A stretch of 64,000 nt of DNA, taken from NCBI RefSeq assembly GCF_006345805.1, contig NC_043019.1:30565360-30629359 (forward strand). The letters are read 5' to 3'. A program made the position numbers and the translations under genes. This DNA is from Octopus sinensis. Taxonomy: Eukaryota. The notes under the pieces are model-generated. The model saw only the letters and a program-made list of their open reading frames with translations. It had not been told where the DNA came from and searched no databases. Below, one piece after another: positions 6,417 through 55,300 of the stretch (positions are counted from its first letter, which is position 1; every line of letters begins with the position of its first letter).

Positions 6417-8228
6417 TTATGTACGAGCAACAAAGCCGTATTTTTCGGGTTGATAAAAGTACTTTTCAATGCATTTGACAATATCTTGCAATTCTTTCAT
6501 GACATCAGCCTTCCCGAGACCCCTGTCAGGCTTGGGACAATGTTCAGTGTAGTATTTGATCTTCGGTTCTGTCCCACTGGTTCTTAGGGTCGCTATACAA
6601 CCGCAATCAAACGTGAAAGTAATGACATGGCTTGACTTACTAGTTGGTAGCAGAGGTACGCCGTCCTCGGTATTACTGTCGAACCCCACAGTTAAATCCC
6701 GTATACCGCTGATAGCATAGGGTCCGCAACTTTTCGGATAAGTCCCTGTTCCTTGATAGTTGCGAAGATCGGCGAACATTTGGTCAGTGGCCGACGAATC
6801 ATAACTGAGGAAATAAGAATTTATAGACAGGTGGTTGCCGTAAGTGGAGTAGACCTCTTCCAATTGATCATTTAAATTTTTTCCTGCCTGGTGAACATAA
6901 CTGGCCATCTCAGCTATAACAGCTGCAGCACTTACACCGTCTTTGTCAAGAACCTTACTGCCACACATAAAACCTATAGCTTCCTCGAATGCAAATAAAA
7001 CAGATTTACCTTGGTTGATCAGTTTGTAAGATTCGCTGCCCATCCATTTAAAACCCGTTAAAGTTTCCACGAAATTCAAGTTTTCTTTGTTGGCGATAGC
7101 TTTCAATATTTTTGAGGAAACAGTACTGGATAACATATAAACATCAGACATAGATTTGTTAGGGTGGTTGTCTTTGTAACATTTTACCAACCACCAACCA
7201 AACAGGGCCCCCAATTCGTTTCCAGTAAATATTTTCCATTTTCCGTCTACTTTCTCGGCCACTGCCAGTCGATCGGCGTCAGGATCATTGGCCAAAATGA
7301 TGGAACTTTGGTGTTCATCGGCAGTTTTCATTGCCAGCTTTAAGGCACCCTCCCCTTCCTCTGGGTTAGGGTACTTCACAGTTGGGAAATCAGGGTCGGC
7401 TTCCACCTGCTCTTTAACAGGAATAGGTGGACTAAAACCAAATACCTCAAGCGATCGAGATGTGAATGGGTAACCAACTCCGTGCATGGCTGTATAAGTG
7501 AATTTCAGGGGAGACTTCTGATTCTGTGCTTTATGAAAACAGAGACTCTCCAAGTCTTTATTATATTCAGTATATACAGTTTCATAAGGGTCGCGAACGA
7601 GTGGGTTATCTTTCAATACTGAAGTATCCCATGACGTACTCCATGGCTCTAGGTTGTTGTCAATGGAATCGGAGAGATATTTTTCATACGGAGACACAAT
7701 CTGTGCTCCGTTGTTCCAGTAGACTTTATATCCATTGTCCTCTTTCGGATTGTGCGAAGCTGTCACCATAACGCCACATCGACAGCCATAATAGGAGACA
7801 GCATAGGGTACATAAGGGGTGGGGCACATCCTTGAATACAAATAAACGGGCACTCCAGCTCGAACGTAAATATTGGCCACTAACTGTGCAAACCTTAAGC
7901 TGTTGTAACGACCATCGTAACCGACAACTACACCTTTCGCTTTCAATTTTTCACAATCGTCAGCTTCTATGTAACGAAGTATACCTTGGGTGGCTTGTAT
8001 GATAATCAGTTCGTTCATATAAGCAAATCCAGCGCCCATCTTCGCACGAAGCCCAGCAGTGCCGAAACTGATACGTTTCAAAAGACATTTCTTCAGTTCG
8101 GCGATGTTTTGTTTTTCTAGAAGATCGTTGATTTCCGAACGGGTTCGTTCGTTCTTATCCCATAACATCCACTGTTCTATTTTAGCGTCCAGCTCTTTAT
8201 TTCCAGTAGTTTTCTTTTGCAGAGCCAT
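6417..8228 (-). CDS. PGM2: Phosphoglucomutase-2 / phosphopentomutase (PGM2/PGM2L1 subfamily), single coding exon, 603 aa
   Basis: Uninterrupted ORF from ATG at 8228 (MALQKK...) with alpha-phosphohexomutase motifs FGTAGLR, TASHNP (catalytic Ser), DPDADR (metal loop), FEEAIG (sugar loop) and RTSGTEPKIK (phosphate loop). The ORF-track start at 8327 is a non-ATG upstream extension. Confidence 0.95.
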   Translation of the reverse strand: MALQKKTTGNKELDAKIEQWMLWDKNERTRSEINDLLEKQNIAELKKCLLKRISFGTAGLRAKMGAGFAYMNELIIIQATQGILRYIEADDCEKLKAKGVVVGYDGRYNSLRFAQLVANIYVRAGVPVYLYSRMCPTPYVPYAVSYYGCRCGVMVTASHNPKEDNGYKVYWNNGAQIVSPYEKYLSDSIDNNLEPWSTSWDTSVLKDNPLVRDPYETVYTEYNKDLESLCFHKAQNQKSPLKFTYTAMHGVGYPFTSRSLEVFGFSPPIPVKEQVEADPDFPTVKYPNPEEGEGALKLAMKTADEHQSSIILANDPDADRLAVAEKVDGKWKIFTGNELGALFGWWLVKCYKDNHPNKSMSDVYMLSSTVSSKILKAIANKENLNFVETLTGFKWMGSESYKLINQGKSVLFAFEEAIGFMCGSKVLDKDGVSAAAVIAEMASYVHQAGKNLNDQLEEVYSTYGNHLSINSYFLSYDSSATDQMFADLRNYQGTGTYPKSCGPYAISGIRDLTVGFDSNTEDGVPLLPTSKSSHVITFTFDCGCIATLRTSGTEPKIKYYTEHCPKPDRGLGKADVMKELQDIVKCIEKYFYQPEKYGFVART

Positions 8229-8656
8229 TCTGATGCAACCGTGGGGAGTCAAGTGACGATAATGACAACACAAGTGTTTATAAATCCTTGAACTTTGTAG
8301 AAAGAGGAAGAGGTAGAAGTAGTTCAACTACTTAGTGGTGTTTAGACAGAGGAGGAATGAGGGAAAGAGAGAGACAGAGAGAGAGAGAGAGGAGGAGGAA
8401 TGAAGGAAAGAGAGAGAGAGAGAGAGAGTGTTGAGATGGAAAGAAAGACAGTATGTGTCAGTGTGTGTGTGTGTATACGTATGCAGGTGTGTGCATGTGC
8501 GTGCGTGAAAGAATTACGGATGGCTAAACGGACAACAAAAACCGTATTCCGTTCTCTATTGTTTGAAACGTGGTCCAACCACAGAAATTACTTAATCTAC
8601 TACAAATAATAATTAACTCTCCCGCTAACCACACTCTTAATTGAGCATATACATAT

Positions 8657-31458: not shown

Positions 31459-31577
31459 GTTTATGGCCATATCATATTGAAAGCTCTGGTTTATGTTTGA
31501 TCACCAAAGTTAAGCAACGTTGAGCCTAGTGAGTATTCAGATGGGTGACCACTTAGGAAACCTAGGTGCTGTACATG
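31459..31577 (+). pseudogene. 5S rRNA pseudogene
   Basis: 119 nt collinear with animal 5S rRNA (gatcaccaaagttaagcaacg...gatgggtgacc...ggtgctgta) with many C>T and G>A changes; single copy, no clear T-tract terminator. Confidence 0.85.
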
Positions 31578-42929: not shown

Positions 42930-45112
42930 GTTTCACAAATACTTTACCATTTCAGTCATCTCTATTTTGTTATAAGTATTTAATTCTTTTTGATGAGGTA
43001 CAGGATTAAATCAACTCCAGTAAGGAACCGCTAAGTGCCAAACTGCTAAATGAAGGGGACGTAAACACACCAGCATCAGTTGTCAACTGATGTTGGGGGA
43101 CCAAAACAGACACACAAAAACATACACTCACACACACATATATATACGATGTGCTTCTTTCAGTTTCCCTCTACCAAATCCATTCACAAAGCTTTGGTTG
43201 GCCCGAGGCTATAGTAGAAGACACTTGCCCATGGTGCCATGCAGTGGGACTGAACCCGGAACCATGTGGTTGGTAAGCAAGCTACTTACCACACAGCCAA
43301 AGAAATATAGCTTTCAAGTTAACTTACCAGAAACAAATTTATATGGAACAGGAATACAGCTCGATGACAGATTTAAAATAATCTTTTTATCATCAGTGAT
43401 GAAATCTAGAAAAAGATTGTACAAGAAGTATTAAATTACAGAATTGCAGAAAAACACATATAATAGCTATCTATTGAAAAAAGGTGATGTAGTGGATTGG
43501 ATGGGTATTTATGAAGGAGTAAAAAACCCTGAAATATGGCATACATGGCCATCACTATTTTCCCATCTTTGATCTCGTTGGTGTTTACATTAGGTGTCTT
43601 GGATAAGAAACATCACAATGAAATCACTGCTGGCTGTAATTTCTATAGAAAGTCTATAGAAATAACCTTAAGACGTGCAGAAGAACCGTGACACAACAGC
43701 TGCACTGAACACAAAACAAAATTTCCTTTACGTTTACTGCAGCTGGTTCTGTCCATTCCTTATTGGCCTAATTGGCCCCCAACGAGCCTGCAGTTAACAT
43801 GAATGGCCCTCTTCTTGAACCTTTGTTTTGGAAAAGCAAACCATGATTTATAAAATCAATCGATAAATGAAATCTTTAACAAATGATTAATGAAACGTAA
43901 TGAAGATGAAAGATTATACCGGATGGATACAAATTCATCCAAGTTAAGTTGTCCTTTGTGGAAGCTTCCTGGGAACAATTTGGGAGGTACTTTGACTGAC
44001 CGGTCAATCTAGGATCAGGGATGAAACAGCTGACCTCTTTAGAGCTCTTTTGTTTTAACTGTGGGAAGAGAAAAAGATAAACACATTTTTACTAGCAAAT
44101 ATAGATTTTGGCACAAGGTCAGTAATTTCAACCCCAGGGCTCAACTGGTACTTATTTTATCAGGCGGCGAGCTGGCAGAAACATTAGCACGCCGGGCGAA
44201 ATGCTTAGCGGTATTTCGTCTGCGTTACGTTGTGAGTTCAAATTCTGCCGAGGTCGACTTTGCCTTTCATCCTTTCGGGGTCGATAAATTAAGTACCAGT
44301 TACAAACTGGGGTCGATGTAATCGACTTAATATCTATGTCTGTCCTTGTTTGTTCCCTCTGTGTTTAGCCCCTTGTGGGTAATAAAGAAATAGGTACTTA
44401 TTTTATTGACCCTGAAAGGATTAAAGGCAAAGTCAACCTGGGCGGAATTTGAACTCAGAATGTTAAGACAGACGAAATATCACTAAGCATTTTTCTTGGA
44501 ATGTTAATGATTTTGCCAGCTTGCCACTATAGTAAAAAAAAAAAAAGAGAATCTTGAATGTTGTGCCCCAGCATGGCCATAGTTCAATGAGTGAAACAAA
44601 TAAAAGGTAGAAGATACACACACAAACACAAACACACACACACACGCACACACAACATTCCCATACCTTGTTCTCCTTGGTTAACGTGGTAGCAATAAAG
44701 GTCGGAAGCTTGATGCCAGAATCGTAAACAGTTACATGGGAAGTATGAGGTAGGAGTAACACCGTCGTGTTAGATGCAGGCAAACCAAAAGATTTAGCCC
44801 CTTCAAAATCCGTGTGGTTGTTTGAGTCATTGAGTAAGACAAATAATCCCTTCACCTGCAAATGGAAATGTGATTCGTTTTTTTTTTTTTGTTAATTTAT
44901 TTATCACAACAAGAATAAATAACAAAGCAATTAACTCTAGAAAAAAAAAAGAAAGGAGAAGTGGCTGTGTGGTAAGAAGCTTGCTTCCCAACCACATGGT
45001 TCCGGGTTCAGTCCAACCCACTGTGTGGCATCTTGGGCAAGTGTCTTCTACTATAACCTCAGGCAGACCAAAGCCTTGTGAGTGGATTTGGTGGATGGAA
45101 ACTGAAAGAAGC

Positions 45113-45150
<38 letters not shown>

Positions 45151-47698
45151 TGCAGCGTGGAAAGTGTTTATAAGCCATTTAAGAAACACACAAAAACCGT
45201 TAGATTCACTTCAACGAGGATTTGGTCAGCCCAAGGTTATAGTAGAAGACACTTGCCCAAGAACCATGTGGTTGGTAAGCAAGTTTTTAACCACACAGCC
45301 ACTCCTACGCCTAGTACATTGGTACTTTATGTAGAAGTATCTTTACCATTTTGCTGAATACTGGGGAGTTAGGACAATCGTTATCTTGAAGAAATTGCTT
45401 CAACTTCACAAGTGACATATTGAAAGGTGTTTTCAAATATTGGCCCATCAGACTCTGCTTGTTCCTTATTGGCGGTGAATGCAAAATGCTATCCAAACGG
45501 CCCACTGTTCCATTGTTTGGAGCACCGGTAACATTGAAGATATCTGAAAAAAGAATTTTCTCATTCAATTTTTTGTTATATATATATATATATATATATT
45601 TTATATATATATATAATATATATATATATATATTTCTCCTTTTTGTGCTCACGTGACCAGCCAGCTACTACTGCCTTTTCGCATCAAGTAGTTAGTGTGA
45701 CAACACGTATTTGTTTGTGCTCCGTTTGCCTTCAGGCACTTGTTCCACAGCCAGCCTATACTCAACTCGTCCTGTCGAAAGATGCTTGTCCTGACGTCCT
45801 GGTTTTGTTATTATTGTTTTTACGTTATTTTGTATTCTTATCCGTGCTATCGTTATTGTTTTTATGTATTTTTGAATTTTTTTCGAGTAACATCGTCCGT
45901 TTTTCCGTCACCGTGTTGTATACTTTCGAGGTTTTCTTCCAAGGAATCTAATGCGATTGGCTTAGATTTCCCTTGGCGGGCTGCCCAGATTGGAGCAATC
46001 TCAAGATTAATCAGCCGAAATTGTGAAGATGATCTGGTTCTTGACTGATGACTGAGAGCTTCGAAAGTCCCGTCTGTGTGTTTTTTTGTTGTCTTCAAAA
46101 TGTTTCACGTTCTTGTCCCAGTTTGTTTTTTTTAACGTTTACATATATACATGGCGGCTACGTATCCTACCTTTTGACCCTATATATATATATATATATA
46201 TGTGCATGTATATGTGTGTATATATATATATATTTGTGTGTGTGTATGTATGTATATAGATGTATGTGCCTATGTCTGTGTCTGCATTTGCGCCCCCTCC
46301 CCACTGCTTGACAATTGGTGCTGGTGTGTATACGTCATAACTTAGTGGTTTAGCAAAAGTGATTGATGCAATAAGTACCAGGCTTTTAAAAATATCAAAG
46401 AAACAAGTAAAACAAAAATAAAAGAAACAACCTATAAGATGGGCTTCTTTCAATTTCCATCCACAAGGCCTTTGTTGGCCTGGGGCCACATCCACATCTA
46501 CTCATATAACATTGATATGCCTGCAACTATACACAGATATACCTACACCTGTGCACAGCCATACCTGTGTCTTTTGAAAATATGGAATGCTTAATATAAC
46601 TGGTACAATATTTTTTACTTAAAAATATGAACAAAATATGGGAATAGAACAAAAAAACAAAAATAAAAAATCAGCGATTACTCACCAGTAAACAGATTAT
46701 AAAGTTCAATATTTTCAAAAGGTTTGATTGTCAAATTTTGCTTGAAATCTGGCCCGTAAGCAAGGAATAAGCTCTGTTGTTTAATATAAAATGATACATC
46801 ATGTAAATACATAAATATACACACACACATGAAAGATTGAAATGGAATATAGAAATTAATAGTTATCGCCATACTAATATGGCATTCTTATAAAAATAAG
46901 AATAAAGCTGTCCGCTTATTAGCTCCATGAGGCCATCGCCTTAAGTTAGCTATTTGATACACAAACTGTATCCATATAACCTTCGAACAAGGGAGGTCAG
47001 TCGCTCCACACTACTTGATCGACAGCTACAGACGCGTTTCGGGGTATTGCCCCTTGTCAATGTAGCGTTTCTATTAACAAGTGGATGTATTCCACCGAAA
47101 CTAGGTAAATAAAACCTTCGAACAGAGATAGTCGGAAGCGACACCTACTGGTCTGACTACGCTACATTGACAAGGGGCAATACCCCGAAACGCGTCTGTA
47201 GCGACTGACCTCCCTTGTTCGAAGGTTATATGGATACAGTTTGTGTATCAAATAGCTAACTTAAGGCGATGGCCTCATGGAGCTAATAAGCGGACAGCTT
47301 TATTCTTATTTTTATAAGAATGCCATATTAGTATGGCGATAACTATTAATTTCCAGGAACGCTGCCGTGTTCTCTTTTAGAGAGACTTAGTAATTTTAAT
47401 ATGAATATAGAAATGATTAACAGAAAAGGACAAAGGACAAATAAACATAGAGATCCTCTCATCAGCCATGCAGACCATGCTCAGTGTAGTTTCAGTATGT
47501 ATAAACTCCAATGACTTTGAATTCTATAGTACTCTTCTCCTTTGGTTGCTCTAGAGATATAGGAGATATCACTGAGGTGATGGTCAAACAAATGCTAAAA
47601 GTGAAGGACAACCACATACTAGTGGGATGGAAAACTGCACTTTTAAACCTTCTTTCAAATATAATTCCACTCATGTGGTACCTTACAACTCCACTTTG

Positions 47699-47749
<51 letters not shown>

Positions 47750-49130
47750 TGCAAAGTATGTACAAGTGATTGTTTTTGAGATTAGGTATGGAAAAATACA
47801 ACACTGACTGAGAATGGTTGAGTGAAGGAAATAAGGAGAGATTAAGGGGTGATACAGTAAGAAGAAAGGATAAGAATTAAAGAGTGAGTTCAATGAAAGT
47901 TTCAATTGAAAAGACAATGGGAGTGAAGAATTTTGGGATTGCCTCACAGTGGTGGTGGCAATGAGTAGGGGAATAGTGAGAGAAACAAAGAAAGAGAATA
48001 ATAAGTGTGAAAGAGAACATGTGAAGAGTGAAGAGAAGTACAGAAAGGAATTTTGAAAGAGGAAAAAAGCAAAACATTAGTAGCAAGGAGAACAAGATAG
48101 AAATGTTAAGTGGCAAAGAAGAAATAAAATTTAACCCTTTTACTGCAGAAATCAGATATATCCTATCAAAATTTCATTAGCCTTTAACTGCCGAAATCAG
48201 TTTTATATTCCAATTAATCTTTTGTTGAGGAACGTCATGTTTGAAATTAATTTCTTTTATGATATACTAGCAGTATCGTCTGGCGTTGCTCGGGTTTGTA
48301 AGGGAAATAACTATAAAGCATTTTTAGAGAGTTATAGCCAAAAAATAGCAAAAAAATGCATTAAAAATGGAAAAAAATGATGGTAATTTTTTTTTTTAAA
48401 TCGTTGACTCATCGTAGACATTTTTAGAGAGTTACTTCCCTTATATAATAGCGAAAAAAGGCATTAAAATGGAAAAAAATGATGGTAAATTATTTTTAAA
48501 ATCGTAGACTCATCGTAGACGCACGCTAATACCCAGAAGGGCTCGATATGAATCACGACTATAACTGCACCACAAAATGTGGGAGTAGTTAGGAATCTAA
48601 ATCATTGGAGACAGACACACAACTTCACTTTTATATATAAAGATTAAGTTTATTAAGGCAATGTTACTTTGCAGAAAATAGCAATTCTATTTTTTTGGTA
48701 GATATTTAACATCATTAATGAAATAACTTTGAAATTTAAGTTTGCTGTTAAAGGGTCAAGAGATCTCATCAAACTTGTGATCAAAGGCAATCCATTCATG
48801 ACTGTCCTACTTTCTATCCAGAAACATTGAACTCAGGACCACATTATTCAATGGCCCCTACTTTCATTTTAACCCCTTTTAATGTGGAAATCAGCTATGT
48901 TCACTCAAAATTTCATTAACCTTAATCACAGAAAGCAATTTTATATACCAATCTATCTTTTGTTGAGGAAGGTCATGTTTGGAACCATTTGCTGTCGAGA
49001 TATGTCAAGTTTACTTCACCAATGTGATTTGCAGAAAATACAATTATATTTTTTGGTAGACTACCATAACCACCACCACCACCGCCACCACCACTGCTGC
49101 CACCGCCACCGCCACCGCCGCCGCCGCCGC

Positions 49131-49302: not shown

Positions 49303-52300
49303 GCCGCCGCCGCCACTGCTGCCGCCACCACCACCACCACCACCACCACCAATTAATTTCAATTAATTTTAAATATAACTAAAAATTTAGTAAAATAACT
49401 TAGTTATCATTAAGCTAGTGGAGGTGTGTGGCTTAGTGGTTAGGGTGTTGAATTCATGATCGTAAGGTTGCGGTTTCGATTCTGGGATTGGGGGATGCAT
49501 TGTGATCTTGAGCAGTCAGCTCAACGAGCAGTTGCTGTTGCTCAAACAAGAGGTCGAGCACCTAAAGTCTGTTGTTGCTCTCTTACTGAATAAACAGTCT
49601 CCTGTTGACGCAGAGTCACCCTTGATTTCTTCCCTGGAGACGTCCAAACCGAAGGGAACAAAATCGAAGCGGCCAAAGAAGGCGAAGGAACCGGTGGTCG
49701 TTTCTGCACATGATCGTTCCTGTGCGGATTCTTCCCCATCTGCCTTTTCGGTCCTGGAGGTTCCCCAACCGAATTTGAGGAGCGTAGACTCAAACCCACC
49801 TGAAGACCGTTGTTCTCCCCAAAAGAAGAAACGTCAAAACTCCAGTGGGGCGGATTTAGCTATGAAACCTGACCACGATAAACGGTCTCCTGTTGACGCA
49901 GAGTCACCCTTGATTTCTTCCCTGGAGACGTCCAAACCGAAGGGAACAAAATCGAAGCGGCCAAAGAAGGTGAAGGAACTGGCGGTCGTTTCTGCACATG
50001 ATCGTTCCTGTGCGGATTCTTCCTCATCTGCCTTTTCGGTCCCGGAGGTTCCCCAACCTAATTTGAGGAGCGTAGACTCAAACCCACCTGAAGACCGTTG
50101 TTCTCCCCAAAAGAAGAAACGTAATCAAAACTCCAGAGGGGCAGATTTGGCTATGAAACCTGATCACGATAAAATCCGTTTGGATTCTCCCTCACCTGTC
50201 CTTCCCATTAATGCCATTGCTCAACCAATTCTGAACGATCTCGATGTGAGTTCATCTGGGGAGTGGCGCTCCCCCAAACCGAAGAAGAGGCAGTGCAGTT
50301 CCAAACCAGGTGGGAAAATTATGACCACTAAACCCATTCCGATCGACCCCACAGGCCGACATAAGTCCGATGGCTATGAAACCACCCTTTCGAAATCCTC
50401 CAATGAAGAATCGAATACCACAGCTCATAGTAGAGAACATTTTGCCCACTCAAGATCAGCAATAATTTACGGTAAAGCTGAATCCACCCGTGATACAGGC
50501 ATAAACCGCCTAAAAGATGACATTAATTTTGTTTCCATTTTGGTTGGAGAATTGTTCTCCGTGAACGAAAAGGTCAGTGTCCTTAAGGTCGCTCGGCTAG
50601 GAAGATTCCAAGCGAACCCAACCGCAGATACTAGACCATGCCCAATAAGGGTAATCTTTTCTTCTGATCGGGAAGCTTCAGTCTTTCTGAACAGAGCTCA
50701 GACGCATTCCTGGGAGGACCCCAATATGGGTTATTGCGAGGAATACTCACTAAGAGAGAGAATTCGCCGGAGAAACCTGATATCCGAACTAAAGATGAGG
50801 AAACAAATGGGAGAGAAGGGTTTACGAATCCAAGATGGACAGATAATCAAGTCCTACCTCTGGTCCCATGCTGTAGTGCTGACAGGGAAAGTGATGTGAG
50901 GGCAAATCGAAGTGAAGTTGATACCCCCGTCAACGATGCTATCTCTGATACCCCTTATTCTGCTTGCTCCCCAACTCCCGCCCCTCAGACTTCACAGCTC
51001 AGCATCGTCTACACCAACTCGTGCCCCTTATTCCCAAAGTTCAGTGAACTATTTACACTGGCCATACGTAACTCCCCTGATGTGATAGCTATCACCGAGA
51101 CTTGGCTGACTCCAGCAGTAAAGGACTCAGAAATCCACCTGCAGGGCTACGTCCTTTTCAGATGTGACAGAGGAAAAAGGCGAGGTGGAGGTGTTGCTGT
51201 GTATGTTAAGTCTGAGCACAAACCGTCCAGCGGTATTCTACCCACTAATGCTCAGCCTACAACAAAATTCGATGCCGTCTATTGCAAGCTGAGCCTATCT
51301 GAGTTTTGCCTGCCCGTGTTGGCTGTCTACAGGCCGCCTCTTGCCGACCCCCATGACGATGCTCATTTACTCGAAGCGATAAGATTCGTTTCAGCTTCGC
51401 ATGACTGTTTGGTACTAGGAGACTTCAACGCTCCCACGATCGATTGGCCCGCATCAATTTGTACAACATCTTCCCGGTTCGGCCAGGCCCTTCTTGACGT
51501 GGCTGAAGATTGTTTTCTATCGTAACATGTTGAATATCCGACAAGGCATTGGTCTGGGCAGCAGCCATCTATGCTAGATCTGGTATTCTCCCGCTATCCA
51601 AGATCAGTGTCAGACGTATCTGTGTGCGCCCCTCTTGCCAAGAGTGATCATGCGGTCCTGAAGTTCGTCATGCACACAACTTTTTCTACGCCCACGACTA
51701 CTTCGCTGCCACGTAGAGTCTTCTCTGCAATTAATCTTGAAATTCTAACCGAGGCTTCCGCGCTTCTGGACTGGCGATCCCTGATGACGTTGTCCTCAGT
51801 TGACGAACTATGGTCATCCCTCAAAGCATATGTAATCTGTTTGACTGACCAGGCAGTTCCCGTTGGGCTCCCCAAGAGGAAGAAACACAAGCCCTGGGTG
51901 ACGAAGAGGGTTAAACAAGAACGTCGACTCAGAGATATTGCTTGGGCTGAATTCAAAAATCTGGATTCGACTGCAGCTTTTGAGGTGTACAAAACTCAAC
52001 GAGACCGAGCCGTGAAAATTGAAAAGAAAGAACGCTTCAGTTACGAATACAAAATTGCGGCAAATGCCAGTAGCAATCCAAAAACCTTCTTTGCCCATGT
52101 CCAGCGGAATTCCCGCTTGAACAACCAGATTGCAACGTTGGTAGACTCAACAGGCGTATCGATTGAGGACCCTTATCAACAGAGTCAATTATTTGCCGAG
52201 GCTTTTTCAACTATTTTCAAACAAGATGATGGTCGTGAACCCCCTCCATTTGATAGATCGGTACCTCCAATGCTTCGATTGGTCATCATGCGGGACGAAG

Positions 52301-55300
52301 TCAAACGTGTTATTCAAGGCCTCGATGTCAACAAAGGTCACGGCCCTGACGGCATACACCCACGGGTTATCAAAGCGTTGGCTCCGGTCATCTGCGAGCC
52401 CTTAACACGACTATTCAATATGTCATTGGCGACGGGTGTTATACCTGCAGACTGGAGAACAGCGATAATCTGCCCAATTTTCAAGAAAGGGAGCCGCGAA
52501 GACTCGCTTAACTACCGACCGGTTTCCCTTACATCAATTATCAGCAAGATGTTCGAAACCATCCTTAAGAAAAGTATGATGCTCCACCTCCTAAACACAG
52601 CCTCTATCTCTGATTCCCAACACGGCTTCATGCCGAAGAGATCATACTTGACCAACCTACTAGTAATGGAAGAATTGGTGACGCGCATTCTCGATGATAG
52701 TGATGCTGTTGACATCGTTTTACTGGACTTTGCCAAAGCTTTTGACTCGGTAAACCACCGCCTATTGCTTGTCAAGCTTCAAGCATATAGTTTCCATCCG
52801 GATATTGTACGATGGGTTGGTGCCTTCCTCTCAGATTGCTCCTTCCAAGTCCAAGTTAATGGTTCGCGGTCCGACGTCTCCAGTGCGAGCAGTGGCGTGC
52901 CTCAAGGTTCAGTGCTTGGGCCCTTGTTGTTCTTAGTCTTCATAAATGACTTGCCCGACGACCTCACGCAACACACCCTTCTATTTGCCGACGATATCAA
53001 ACTGGTCGCTCCTCGCGGAAATATAGAGGATCTTCGTCGATGCCTCCACCAAATTTGGAAGTGGTCTAACAATTGGGACCTGTGTCTGAACATGTCAAAG
53101 TGCTGTCATCTGCCTGTTGGCTCTACTCCTGCAACTCAACTTGATTTCGAGCCGGGTCGTCTGCTGCTGGAGAGGACCGATCAGGTAAAGGACCTAGGTA
53201 TCTTGGTGGATTCCTCCTTTTCGCCTTCGGCCCAGTGCGTCCATGCTGCCAACAAAGCACGCGGAATTCTGTTCTTGATTCGACGGTCATTCGGACTGCT
53301 CACAGCAGCCATATTCCTACCACTCTATGTCACGCTGGTGAGACCCATATTGGAGTATGGGATTCAAGCCTCTTCTCCTTATCTCCTCAAAGACATACAG
53401 CATCTCGAAAGAGTCCAGAAGCTGGCTACCCGCATGGTTCATGGTCTCAAAAATTTGTCCTATGAAGAAAGGCTGAGGACGCTCGACCTTTATTCTCTTG
53501 AAAAACGCCGCCGCCGTGGTGATCTCATTCTCGCCCACAACATCATAAGCGGAAAGTGTAACCTCTCGAAAGAGCTGTTCTTCACTCCTGCTCCAGAGCG
53601 TCGGCTGCGAGGTCATTCCGAAAAGCTCTACCTGCGATGATTTCATCTCAATCGAAGGAGAGGAGCTTTCTCCGTCCGGGTTGCGGATCCGTGGAACAAG
53701 CTGCCAGACTAGATGGTGAAGATGCTGACGACCGCTTTGTTCAAAGCCTCCCTTGACCTCAAGTGGCCTGAACTCTTTACATGAACACCACCCTGTACTT
53801 AACTCCATGTCCCCCTACATGGCCTTGCTATTTGCTTTTGAGCCAAATTAACTAACTAACTAACTAACTTCATTTCACGTGGCTCCAGTTGACTCAGCTG
53901 GCAAAAATGAGTAACGCTGCGATGGACTGGCGTCCATTTAGTAAATTTAGTAAAATAACTCAGTTATTATTTAGCTAGTGTTTGGAACATAAATTGTGAC
54001 TAAGGTTTGGTGGAAGATTTCAATGCAAAACTTATGAAAACAAGACATTTGTACTACAGAGCCAGAGCAGGTTTCAGCCGGGTTGGTATCAGAAGGGTTA
54101 AATATAACAAAGAATTTAGTAAAATAACTCAGTTATTATTTATCTAGTGTTAGGAACATAAATTGTGACTAAGGTTTGGTGGAAGATTTCAATGCAAAAC
54201 TTATGAAAACAAGACATTTGTACTACAGATCCAGAGCAGGTTTCAGCCGGGTTGGTATCAAAAGGGTTAAATATAACAAAGAATTTAGTAAAATAACTCA
54301 GTTATCATTTAGCTAGTGTTTGGAACATAAATTGTGACTAAGGTTTGGTGGAAGATTTCAATGCAAAACTTATGAAAACAAGACATTTGTACTACAGAGC
54401 CAGAGCAGGTTTCAGCCGGGTTGGTATCAAAAGGGTTAAACATTTATTATTTAGTATCAAAATTTTCATCACAGTAAATGTGACCATGTCACTGATAAGA
54501 TTCTTGCCAGTGATCAGTCAATGAAAATTTTCACACTAGATAATAAATGTTGATGTGAAGTTAATCGTCTTTGAGAGTTAAAGTAATTGAATTGTCAAAA
54601 TGCGTCTTGCATTATGATTAAAACAAAAATACTGAAAAATAAAGTAAATTCATAAAATTTTACCCTCATGCTTCTGTATCGGTTGTCATAACCATGGCTT
54701 CCTTTATCTGTATATAAAGCTATATCCCTGAGGAAAAGAGAAAGATTTTAATTAATACTTCATTTCAAATTACTTAAGTTTACCGAGCTGTAAATGGGTA
54801 TAACCTGTGAAGGAGTAGTCTTCTGATCAGAGACAATGTTGGCCTGCTCACCTACCCAGCAGGGTGGCTTAATTTGAAAGCTAAAATGATCTAAAGCACA
54901 TTATGACCAGTGATGTATAACAACATCTGATAGTCTGGTTGATCGTGTGATATACATATATATATATATATATATACACACACATATATATACATACATA
55001 CATATATATATAAATATATATATGTGTGTGTGTATATAAATTAGAGAAGACCCACCATGTAGCAATTCAACAATGATATACTTAAATCATACCATATAGA
55101 AAAAAATTAAAGATACAATAAAACATTTACCTAGAACTAAATAAAGTCTGAAATAATGAATAATTAGTATATAATTAGTAAATAGACTACACGTGTTTTG
55201 TGGCTATATTTTCAAATTGATAACAATAAAATCATTCAATTTAAATATAGTCACTCATCAGGTCTAAGATAAAAATAATAAAATAATCAACTGTATATAT

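What the first reader, a model, noticed from the sequence alone, without database searches (positions are those of the whole stretch)
47025..47202. Hammerhead with a compensatory U3-A8 core (UUGACAA instead of CUGANGA), in two identical inverted copies
Seen: a 42-nt motif GCUACA UUGACAA GGGG-caaua-CCCC GAAAC GC GUC UGUAGC on both strands. The only core deviations are C3>U and G8>A. Known: positions 3 and 8 form a Watson-Crick pair in the active hammerhead, and U3-A8 is a rare but tolerated variant. Inference: a functional variant that standard CUGANGA searches would miss. The ACGCGU palindrome suggests dimeric cleavage.
Basis: partly seen in the sequence, partly recalled or inferred. Interest (0 to 1): 0.82.

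Follow-up and report, generated by a model that had tools for sequence, protein, structure and literature searches.

The report
Penelope-spread retrozyme with U3-A8 hammerhead
This is one young insertion of a 362-base non-coding repeat with over a thousand copies, whose hammerhead RNA motif keeps an already known U-A core swap in every subfamily and so likely still cuts itself in pairs in tandem copies, and whose insertion shape matches that of a Penelope-type jumping gene in the same genome that likely spreads it.

Summary
The motif is real (47161-47202 +, 47025-47066 -). It is one insertion (46857-47402, 12-bp target duplication) of a 362-nt non-coding repeat. U3-A8 is the family state: 1,312 of 1,320 exact genome matches, none C3-G8. 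It is kept across four subfamilies and an older related family, while helices I, II and the helix III palindrome change in compensating pairs. That fits a working type I hammerhead in an animal non-LTR retrozyme; in tandem arrays the predicted best fold is the double hammerhead. The two inverted copies are not that dimer: they lie on opposite strands, each lacks half of extended helix I, and read-through RNA would bury them in a long hairpin. They are the two arms of one Penelope-type insertion: 24 of 34 insertions pair one short with one long fixed end. A young Neptune-like Penelope family here follows the same rule (5 of 7 loci) and also has U3-A8, so it is the likely mobiliser, though no sequence homology was found. 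U3-A8, retrozymes and dimer cleavage are published; cleavage and expression are untested. The scan noted similar elements in other genomes.

The parts
46845..46856 (+). Left copy of the 12-bp target-site duplication (its last 5 nt also match the element end)
   Evidence: Identical 12-mer at 47403-47414
46857..47068 (-). Inverted, 5'-truncated arm; begins 2 nt before the hammerhead and ends at the short fixed 3' end (monomer position about 210)
   Evidence: 99% identical to the 362-nt monomer
47025..47066 (-). U3-A8 hammerhead copy 1 (U3 47060, A8 47055, predicted cut after 47031); lacks the 5' strand of extended helix I
47003..47024 (-). 3' strand of extended helix I, present in this arm and deleted (22 nt) from the plus arm
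47069..47402 (+). Direct arm: one full turn of the monomer in circular permutation, less a 6-nt and a 22-nt deletion; ends near the long fixed 3' end (monomer position about 264)
47081..47095 (+). Conserved 5-bp hairpin just after the long end; looks hammerhead-like but its GAAA box is broken in subfamily D, so not counted as a ribozyme
47125..47160 (+). 5' strand of extended helix I with the 3-nt UAC loop; its partner strand is deleted in this arm
47161..47202 (+). U3-A8 type I hammerhead copy 2: helix I 6 bp, helix II 4 bp with 5-nt loop, palindrome at 47190-47195, predicted cut after 47196
47349..47402 (+). Penelope-type 'tail': the stretch between the two fixed 3' ends, on one arm only (54 nt here, about 60 in most copies)
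47403..47414 (+). Right copy of the 12-bp target-site duplication

Best explanation
The motif is the type I hammerhead of a 362-nt non-coding repeat (an animal non-LTR retrozyme) that likely self-cleaves as a double hammerhead in tandem transcripts and is likely copied into the genome by a Penelope-like element's protein, the two inverted copies here being the two arms of one such insertion. Shown: the repeat, its U3-A8 core in all subfamilies, compensating changes in its helices, tandem arrays, outward-facing arms with one short and one long fixed 3' end, AT-rich targets and a 12-bp duplication. Inferred steps: (1) a tandem array is transcribed; (2) two neighbouring hammerheads swap strands so that their palindromes form a 6-bp helix III, and each cuts after GUC, with U3-A8 replacing C3-G8; (3) the monomer is ligated to a circle by a host ligase, as published for other retrozymes; (4) a Penelope-like RT/GIY-YIG protein nicks both strands of an AT-rich site and starts reverse transcription at two fixed internal sites about 60 nt apart, running round the circle, and the two cDNAs are joined at their 5' ends. 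The Neptune-like family found here is the best candidate for that protein. The two copies in this window are themselves likely inactive passengers.
For: Family state: 1,312 of 1,320 matches U3-A8, 0 C3-G8. Subfamily majority rows A vs C: 0 of 42 differences in the hammerhead, 35 of 318 outside (p = 0.02; C loci were picked by the motif). A vs D (D met as a bystander): 0 of 12 core differences, 43 of 320 outside, with G-C to A-U at the base of helix II, A-U to G-C in helix I and the palindrome changed on both sides. Older family O: 32 of 41 copies U3-A8, 1 C3-G8; against the young family 13 changed helix positions leave all 13 pairs canonical, 6 by double change (14 of 2,000,000 random trials). 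Pair count on 8 real copies: 93.4% paired, 9 pairs with double changes, 0 of 500 shuffles. Free best fold of two natural tandem dimers equals the double hammerhead, 18 kcal/mol below two monomer folds. Anatomy: 24 of 34 complete insertions short+long, none short+short or long+long, 25 inverted; 16 of 16 two-strand clusters face outward. This is the published Penelope signature. Autonomous family: RT + GIY-YIG ORF of 781 aa with a CX4CxxC linker, U3-A8 in 99 of the first 100 of 1,224 matches, two fixed ends into (AT)n, short+long pairing in 5 of 7 inverted loci.
Against: No cleavage or RNA data. No BLAST similarity between the monomer and any of 45 GIY-YIG loci except an independent insertion; only 150 of 5,029 endonuclease candidates were scored; tails differ (about 30 vs 60 nt), so the partner may be another family. 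A vs B and B vs C hammerhead conservation is not significant (p = 0.33, 0.20). Subfamily D has lost the outermost helix I pair (G.A). One of 29 D loci and one of 7 PLE loci read short+short. Homology of family O rests on weak downstream similarity (global z 3.2, local z 1.5, none upstream). Eight of nine frog retrozyme dimers did not cleave in vitro, and hammerhead mutants did not block insertion by an anole Penelope protein in vitro. C>T and G>A are common mutations, and the PLE's own core sits in a T-rich tract with a weak helix I.
Confidence: 0.8

Rival explanations
1. The repeat is spread by Penelope machinery but its hammerhead is dead or nearly so: U3 and A8 arose by common C>T and G>A mutation and the fold is kept for another reason, such as protein binding.
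For: Both changes are common transitions; hammerhead activity was not needed for insertion in vitro; 8 of 9 frog retrozyme dimers did not cleave; the lone 42-mer is predicted to misfold, with GAC pairing to the GUC cut site.
Against: All 12 core positions are unchanged across subfamilies that differ by 11-13% elsewhere, while position 7 takes C, A or U; the palindrome and helices covary; U3-A8 is reported active in vitro.
Confidence: 0.13
2. It is a satellite or DNA-level palindrome: a Penelope end fragment amplified in place by unequal crossing-over, with inverted copies made by DNA rearrangement.
For: Local amplification of a PLE terminal sequence is one model in the 2026 preprint; tandem arrays exist; 82 unshared against 46 shared arm-specific substitutions.
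Against: Copies are dispersed over many contigs; arrays lie inside single insertions bounded by the same two fixed ends; arms always face outward (16 of 16); 12-bp target duplications.
Confidence: 0.04
3. One reading: the two inverted copies at this locus are a functional pair that cleaves as a dimer.
For: Both copies are intact and identical over 42 nt with a perfect palindrome.
Against: Opposite strands cannot both be sense in one RNA; a read-through RNA folds into a hairpin of about 190 bp that pairs the ribozyme with its complement (-383 kcal/mol); each copy lacks one strand of extended helix I; identity only reflects one recent insertion.
Confidence: 0.03

Closest known systems
Metazoan non-LTR retrozymes (Cervera and de la Pena 2020, PMC7229834; parts 2-4 of 6 read, supplement not readable)
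   Same: Non-coding tandem unit of 362 nt and 41% GC (mussel 350-390, axolotl 330/350), one type I hammerhead per unit, helix I 6 bp, helix II 4 bp, helix III of one pair plus a palindromic tetraloop as in axolotl HHR_Amex1, which cleaves well only as a dimer; strongly self-paired circle (z = -8.3).
   Different: U3-A8 core, not mentioned for retrozymes in the parts read; inverted two-arm insertions with a tail are not described there ('inverted' 0 occurrences); the mobiliser is left open there (LINEs or PLEs).
U3-A8 hammerheads: natural examples in Perreault et al. 2011 (PMC3088659, passages) and about 1,300 minimal motifs of Schistosoma Cercyon PLEs (Cervera and de la Pena 2014, PMC4209133, parts 1-2 of 4 and supplement passages)
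   Same: Same covariation at 3-8; palindromic helix III; link to Penelope-like elements; opposite-strand pairs 100-700 bp apart were noted.
   Different: Those are heterogeneous minimal motifs, mostly single, with an extra base after A9; this one has the full canonical helix sizes, an extended helix I with an internal loop, and sits in a young homogeneous tandem family.
Penelope-like element insertions (Craig et al. 2021, PMC8557442 and its preprint, passages; Frangieh et al. 2024, PMC11167929, parts 1-2 of 4)
   Same: Inverted 5'-truncated arm, tail on one end only, two internal reverse-transcription start sites, AT-rich or (TA)n targets.
   Different: No ORF; tail about 60 nt rather than 30-40; whole unit repeated within each arm.
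Li, Clavereau and Pollet 2026 preprint (10.64898/2026.07.22.740005, parts 1 and 3 of 5 and passages)
   Same: [quoted passage not shown]
   Different: Its evidence is co-occurrence and pLTR phylogeny, mostly vertebrate; 'tail' and 'target site' do not occur in it. Here the evidence is insertion anatomy, and no pLTR homology was found.

Membership tests
Type I hammerhead ribozyme | Conserved core boxes with a Watson-Crick pair at 3-8 and an NUH cut site | tested here: met
   UUGANAA / GAAA / GUC; U3-A8 in 1,312 of 1,320; 0 of 12 core differences A vs D
Type I hammerhead ribozyme | Helices I, II, III with helix I open, supported by covariation | tested here: met
Type I hammerhead ribozyme | Internal loop in extended helix I able to contact loop 2 | tested here: inconclusive
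   A 3-nt URC / single U internal loop is kept in A, B, C and O with a covarying outer helix; the 3D contact itself was not tested; both window copies lack half of it
Type I hammerhead ribozyme | Match to an Rfam hammerhead model | tested here: not met
   No hammerhead hit at gathering score or at E<=10; reflects the model's C3-G8 core and short helix III (inference)
Type I hammerhead ribozyme | Site-specific self-cleavage | not testable with these tools
   Needs in vitro transcription
Animal non-LTR retrozyme | Tandem non-coding unit of 150-450 bp, GC under 50%, one type I hammerhead per unit | tested here: met
   359-362 nt period; GC 0.406, longest Met-started frame 21 aa; 13 of 51 clusters tandem
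Animal non-LTR retrozyme | Target duplications longer than 4 bp | tested here: met
   12 bp in the window and in L011, L022, L038, L043; most others are obscured by (AT)n
Animal non-LTR retrozyme | Expressed as linear and circular monomer RNA | not tested
   No RNA data were obtained; only a predicted stable circle
Non-autonomous Penelope-like element | Inverted 5'-truncated arm and tail on one end only | tested here: met
   24 of 34 and 12 of 29 in subfamily D, with 1 short+short
Non-autonomous Penelope-like element | Sequence similarity to the pLTR or 3' end of an autonomous family | tested here: inconclusive
   None by BLAST against 45 GIY-YIG loci; only 150 of 5,029 candidates scored; shared U3-A8 core, shared ACAUGU palindrome in D, and a shared CTATTAT at the long end
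Neptune/Nematis-type PLE (candidate partner, L145/L154) | RT, C-terminal GIY-YIG, CX2-5CxxC linker | tested here: met
   no tree was built, so Neptune vs Nematis is open

The most novel reading that the evidence does not exclude
A retrozyme lineage and its autonomous Neptune-like partner have both carried a U3-A8 hammerhead for a long time, and every two-armed insertion records one Penelope protein dimer priming from two fixed sites on one RNA circle, one per DNA strand, and copying round the circle. That would be direct genomic evidence for how animal retrozymes are mobilised, with a defined protein-RNA pair to reconstitute, and it would mean that CUGANGA-based censuses miss the most abundant young ribozymes of such genomes.
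Probability: 0.5. Interest if true: 0.6.

Novelty: new variant of a known kind. Interest (0 to 1): 0.45.

Why it matters
The core swap alone is published. What adds value is the natural experiment around it: five lineages that change their helices and even the helix III palindrome in compensating pairs while holding U3-A8, which is comparative support both for activity of the variant and for dimer cleavage. And the papers read leave the mobiliser of animal retrozymes as a proposal; here the insertion anatomy is the Penelope one, and a young coding family in the same genome follows the same two-end rule, so the question can be put to an existing in vitro assay. In this genome U3-A8 motifs (1,653 and 1,224 pattern matches) far outnumber the C3-G8 ones found with one comparable pattern (159), although the patterns are not equivalent.

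Tried and rejected
Rfam: no hammerhead hit. A second hammerhead-like stretch in the monomer (47070-47105) was considered and rejected: extra bases on both sides of its stem, GAAA box broken in subfamily D, absent as a core in family O. No C3-G8 or U3-A8 sister with the same loop but another stem II (0 matches). No coding ORF related to a Penelope element around 50 retrozyme loci or around 34 other hammerhead loci. No BLAST link between the monomer and the autonomous family or the C3-G8 motifs. One profile search of family O against the monomer returned nothing while an earlier one gave weak hits; pairwise tests were mixed. No tRNA in the window; a B-box-like 7-mer at monomer position 79 has no A box, so the promoter is unknown. 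No RNA evidence was obtained, which leaves expression, cleavage and circularisation open. Papers not held and so not read: Przybilski and Hammann 2007, Lunse et al. 2017, Nelson and Uhlenbeck 2008; they may already describe U3-A8 dimer variants or give rates. The supplement of PMC7229834 could not be read and may list related invertebrate families; one supplement file of PMC4209133 was not searched; preprint supplements are closed. The organism was not determined; 'octopus' and 'cephalopod' were guesses used as search words only.

Full report
1. Observation. The 42-nt motif lies at 47161-47202 (+) and identically at 47025-47066 (-). A descriptor scan finds only these two sites in the window, against 0.04 per shuffled window (100 shuffles). 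Rfam gives no hammerhead at either threshold. The 42-mer alone folds at -13.3 kcal/mol (z -2.6), into helices I and II with the core GAC mispaired to the GUC cut site; with flanks, the A15.1-U16.1 pair has probability near 0 as a monomer.

2. The element. The window's genome (G000, 2.72 Gb) holds a 359-362-nt repeat in dispersed tandem arrays, 41% GC, non-coding. An exact 32-mer with positions 3, 7 and 8 free has 1,320 matches, reversed control 0. Six have another base at 3 (5 C, 1 A) and two at 8 (1 G, 1 C); none has both. The eight were seen in their loci (L050, seven); where neighbouring copies exist in the same insertion they are U3-A8, so these are private mutations. A looser pattern gives 1,653; its first 100 places form 51 clusters, 13 with a same-strand neighbour one unit away and 16 with both strands, all 16 facing outward.

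3. Is U3-A8 under selection? In a young family 99% conservation proves little, so I compared lineages. Subfamilies A (12 loci), B (17) and C (8) differ in the hammerhead only at position 7 and by an A-U to G.U change in helix I; A vs C shows 0 of 42 differences inside and 35 of 318 outside (p = 0.02; A vs B p = 0.33, B vs C p = 0.20). These loci were partly chosen by the motif. Subfamily D was met as a bystander and then collected (29 loci after dropping one overlap). Of 41 rows printed, one was unrelated and one truncated; 38 of the other 39 have U3 and A8, and 39 of 40 have the palindrome ACAUGU in place of ACGCGU. D also swaps the base of helix II from G-C to A-U and one helix I pair from A-U to G-C, but loses the outermost helix I pair. 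A vs D: 0 of 12 core, 43 of 320 outside. An old family O (copies 68-80% to the query) has U3-A8 in 32 of 41 pieces that cover the core, C3-G8 in 1 and single mismatches or gaps in 8 (51 pieces from 29 loci). Its majority helices differ from the young family's at 13 of 26 positions, all 13 pairs stay canonical, 6 by double change (14 of 2,000,000 random trials); it keeps the 3-nt/1-nt internal loop of extended helix I and shares its loop 2 with D. Its kinship to the young family is only moderately supported. On 8 real copies, 93.4% of cells pair and 9 of 17 pairs show double changes, 0 of 500 shuffles, slid controls 27-53% (related sequences, so not a probability).

4. Dimer. For two natural tandem dimers the unconstrained best fold equals the double hammerhead with a 6-bp helix III (-169.0 and -172.7), 18 kcal/mol below two monomer folds; a D dimer also forms the palindromic helix, with some core mispairing. 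This is the arrangement of axolotl HHR_Amex1, 6% cleaved as a monomer and far better as a dimer (PMC7229834). At this locus it cannot apply: the copies are on opposite strands, a read-through RNA is predicted to form a hairpin of about 190 bp, the plus arm has lost 22 nt directly after helix I and the minus arm starts 2 nt before it.

5. Insertion anatomy. The insertion spans 46857-47402 between two copies of a 12-mer. Among 39 insertions in 38 non-redundant loci (13 overlapping loci dropped; 5 insertions cut by a locus edge), 34 were complete: 24 have one 3' end at monomer position 201-215 and one at 264-276, 5 only the short, 4 only the long, 1 short plus other; 25 are inverted; most sit in (AT)n. 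In D: 12 short+long, 11 single-ended, 1 short+short, 5 with another end. The two arms of an insertion share 46 non-majority substitutions and differ at 82 over 27 loci. An inverted 5'-truncated copy and a tail on one end only are the published marks of Penelope-like elements, and the tail is the stretch between two internal reverse-transcription starts of a protein that cuts both strands at AT-rich DNA and is predicted to be a dimer (PMC11167929).

6. Candidate mobiliser. A GIY-YIG search (150 of 5,029 candidates scored) led to a young family with intact 781-aa RT plus endonuclease frames and the CX4CxxC linker of Neptune/Nematis elements, a motif proposed to direct them to microsatellites. 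Its 3' region holds its own hammerhead with U3 and A8 in 23 of 23 motifs picked by the protein search and in 99 of the first 100 of 1,224 pattern matches. Of 25 distinct 3' ends, 16 are short, 7 long and 2 elsewhere, 23 running straight into (AT)n. Of the 7 outward-facing pairs taken from that listing, 5 pair short with long, 1 is short+short and 1 is unresolved. Against identity of the partner: no BLAST similarity to the monomer and a tail of about 30 rather than 60 nt.

7. Known work. Natural U3-A8 and its in vitro activity are stated in PMC3088659 (passages); about 1,300 U3-A8 minimal motifs were found in Schistosoma PLEs (PMC4209133). Retrozymes, their circles and ligation are in PMC7229834, which names PLEs as a strong candidate only; the 2026 preprint adds phylogeny. 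Searches for U3-A8 with hammerhead, for hammerhead with octopus or cephalopod and for retrozyme with inverted or tail listed no paper describing a U3-A8 retrozyme or this anatomy for retrozymes; I saw most of those hits as listings only, three relevant papers were not held, and non-autonomous PLEs as such are described. That G8's ribose, not its base, serves catalysis, so that A8 can stand in, is recalled and comes from no call. Earlier notes of this scan found nothing like this sequence but four similar elements in other genomes with the same reading; they are not independent support, and was run after reading them.

8. Verdict. Observation confirmed; the variant is real, fixed and likely functional at family level (about 0.75 for dimer cleavage), but known. 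The window's pair is the trace of one Penelope-type insertion and likely inactive. New variant of a known kind; interest 0.45.

Noticed in passing
window 6417-8327 (-): Uninterrupted 636-codon frame with three phosphoglucomutase domains: an intronless PGM2-like gene or retrocopy in an animal genome.
   Followed up: partly
window 31459-31577 (+): Single 5S rRNA match, 79.3 bits, with several broken pairs; probably a dispersed copy.
   Followed up: no
window 49466-53640 (+): LINE-like element: 477-aa frame, then endonuclease-like and reverse-transcriptase-like frames of 285 and 704 aa; family label from reading the sequence, not scanned.
   Followed up: no
window 45031-45262: 49-nt inverted arms around an (AT)n tract, part of another common repeat.
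   Followed up: no
window 48130-48993: Direct repeats of 55-72 nt at 738-739 spacing and of 16-51 nt at about 100 spacing.
   Followed up: no
L145 1174-4877; L154: The autonomous Penelope-like family has a 479-aa frame overlapping the start of the 781-aa RT/endonuclease frame, and an unusually long 3' region of about 1 kb with internal repeats.
   Followed up: partly
L145 584 and 6519; L152 (minus, 5521 on that strand): C3-G8 hammerheads of other repeat families; one belongs to a second Penelope-like ORF of 775 aa. So both core types occur among this genome's elements.
   Followed up: no
L169 near 698 (+): An unrelated hammerhead-like motif with a U3/A8-type core (UUAAUAA) and an ACCGGU palindrome: possibly a further old family.
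   Followed up: no
L003/L004, L145, L162: Whole insertions duplicated in tandem with their flanks at 1,420, 5,935 and about 715 bp spacing.
   Followed up: no
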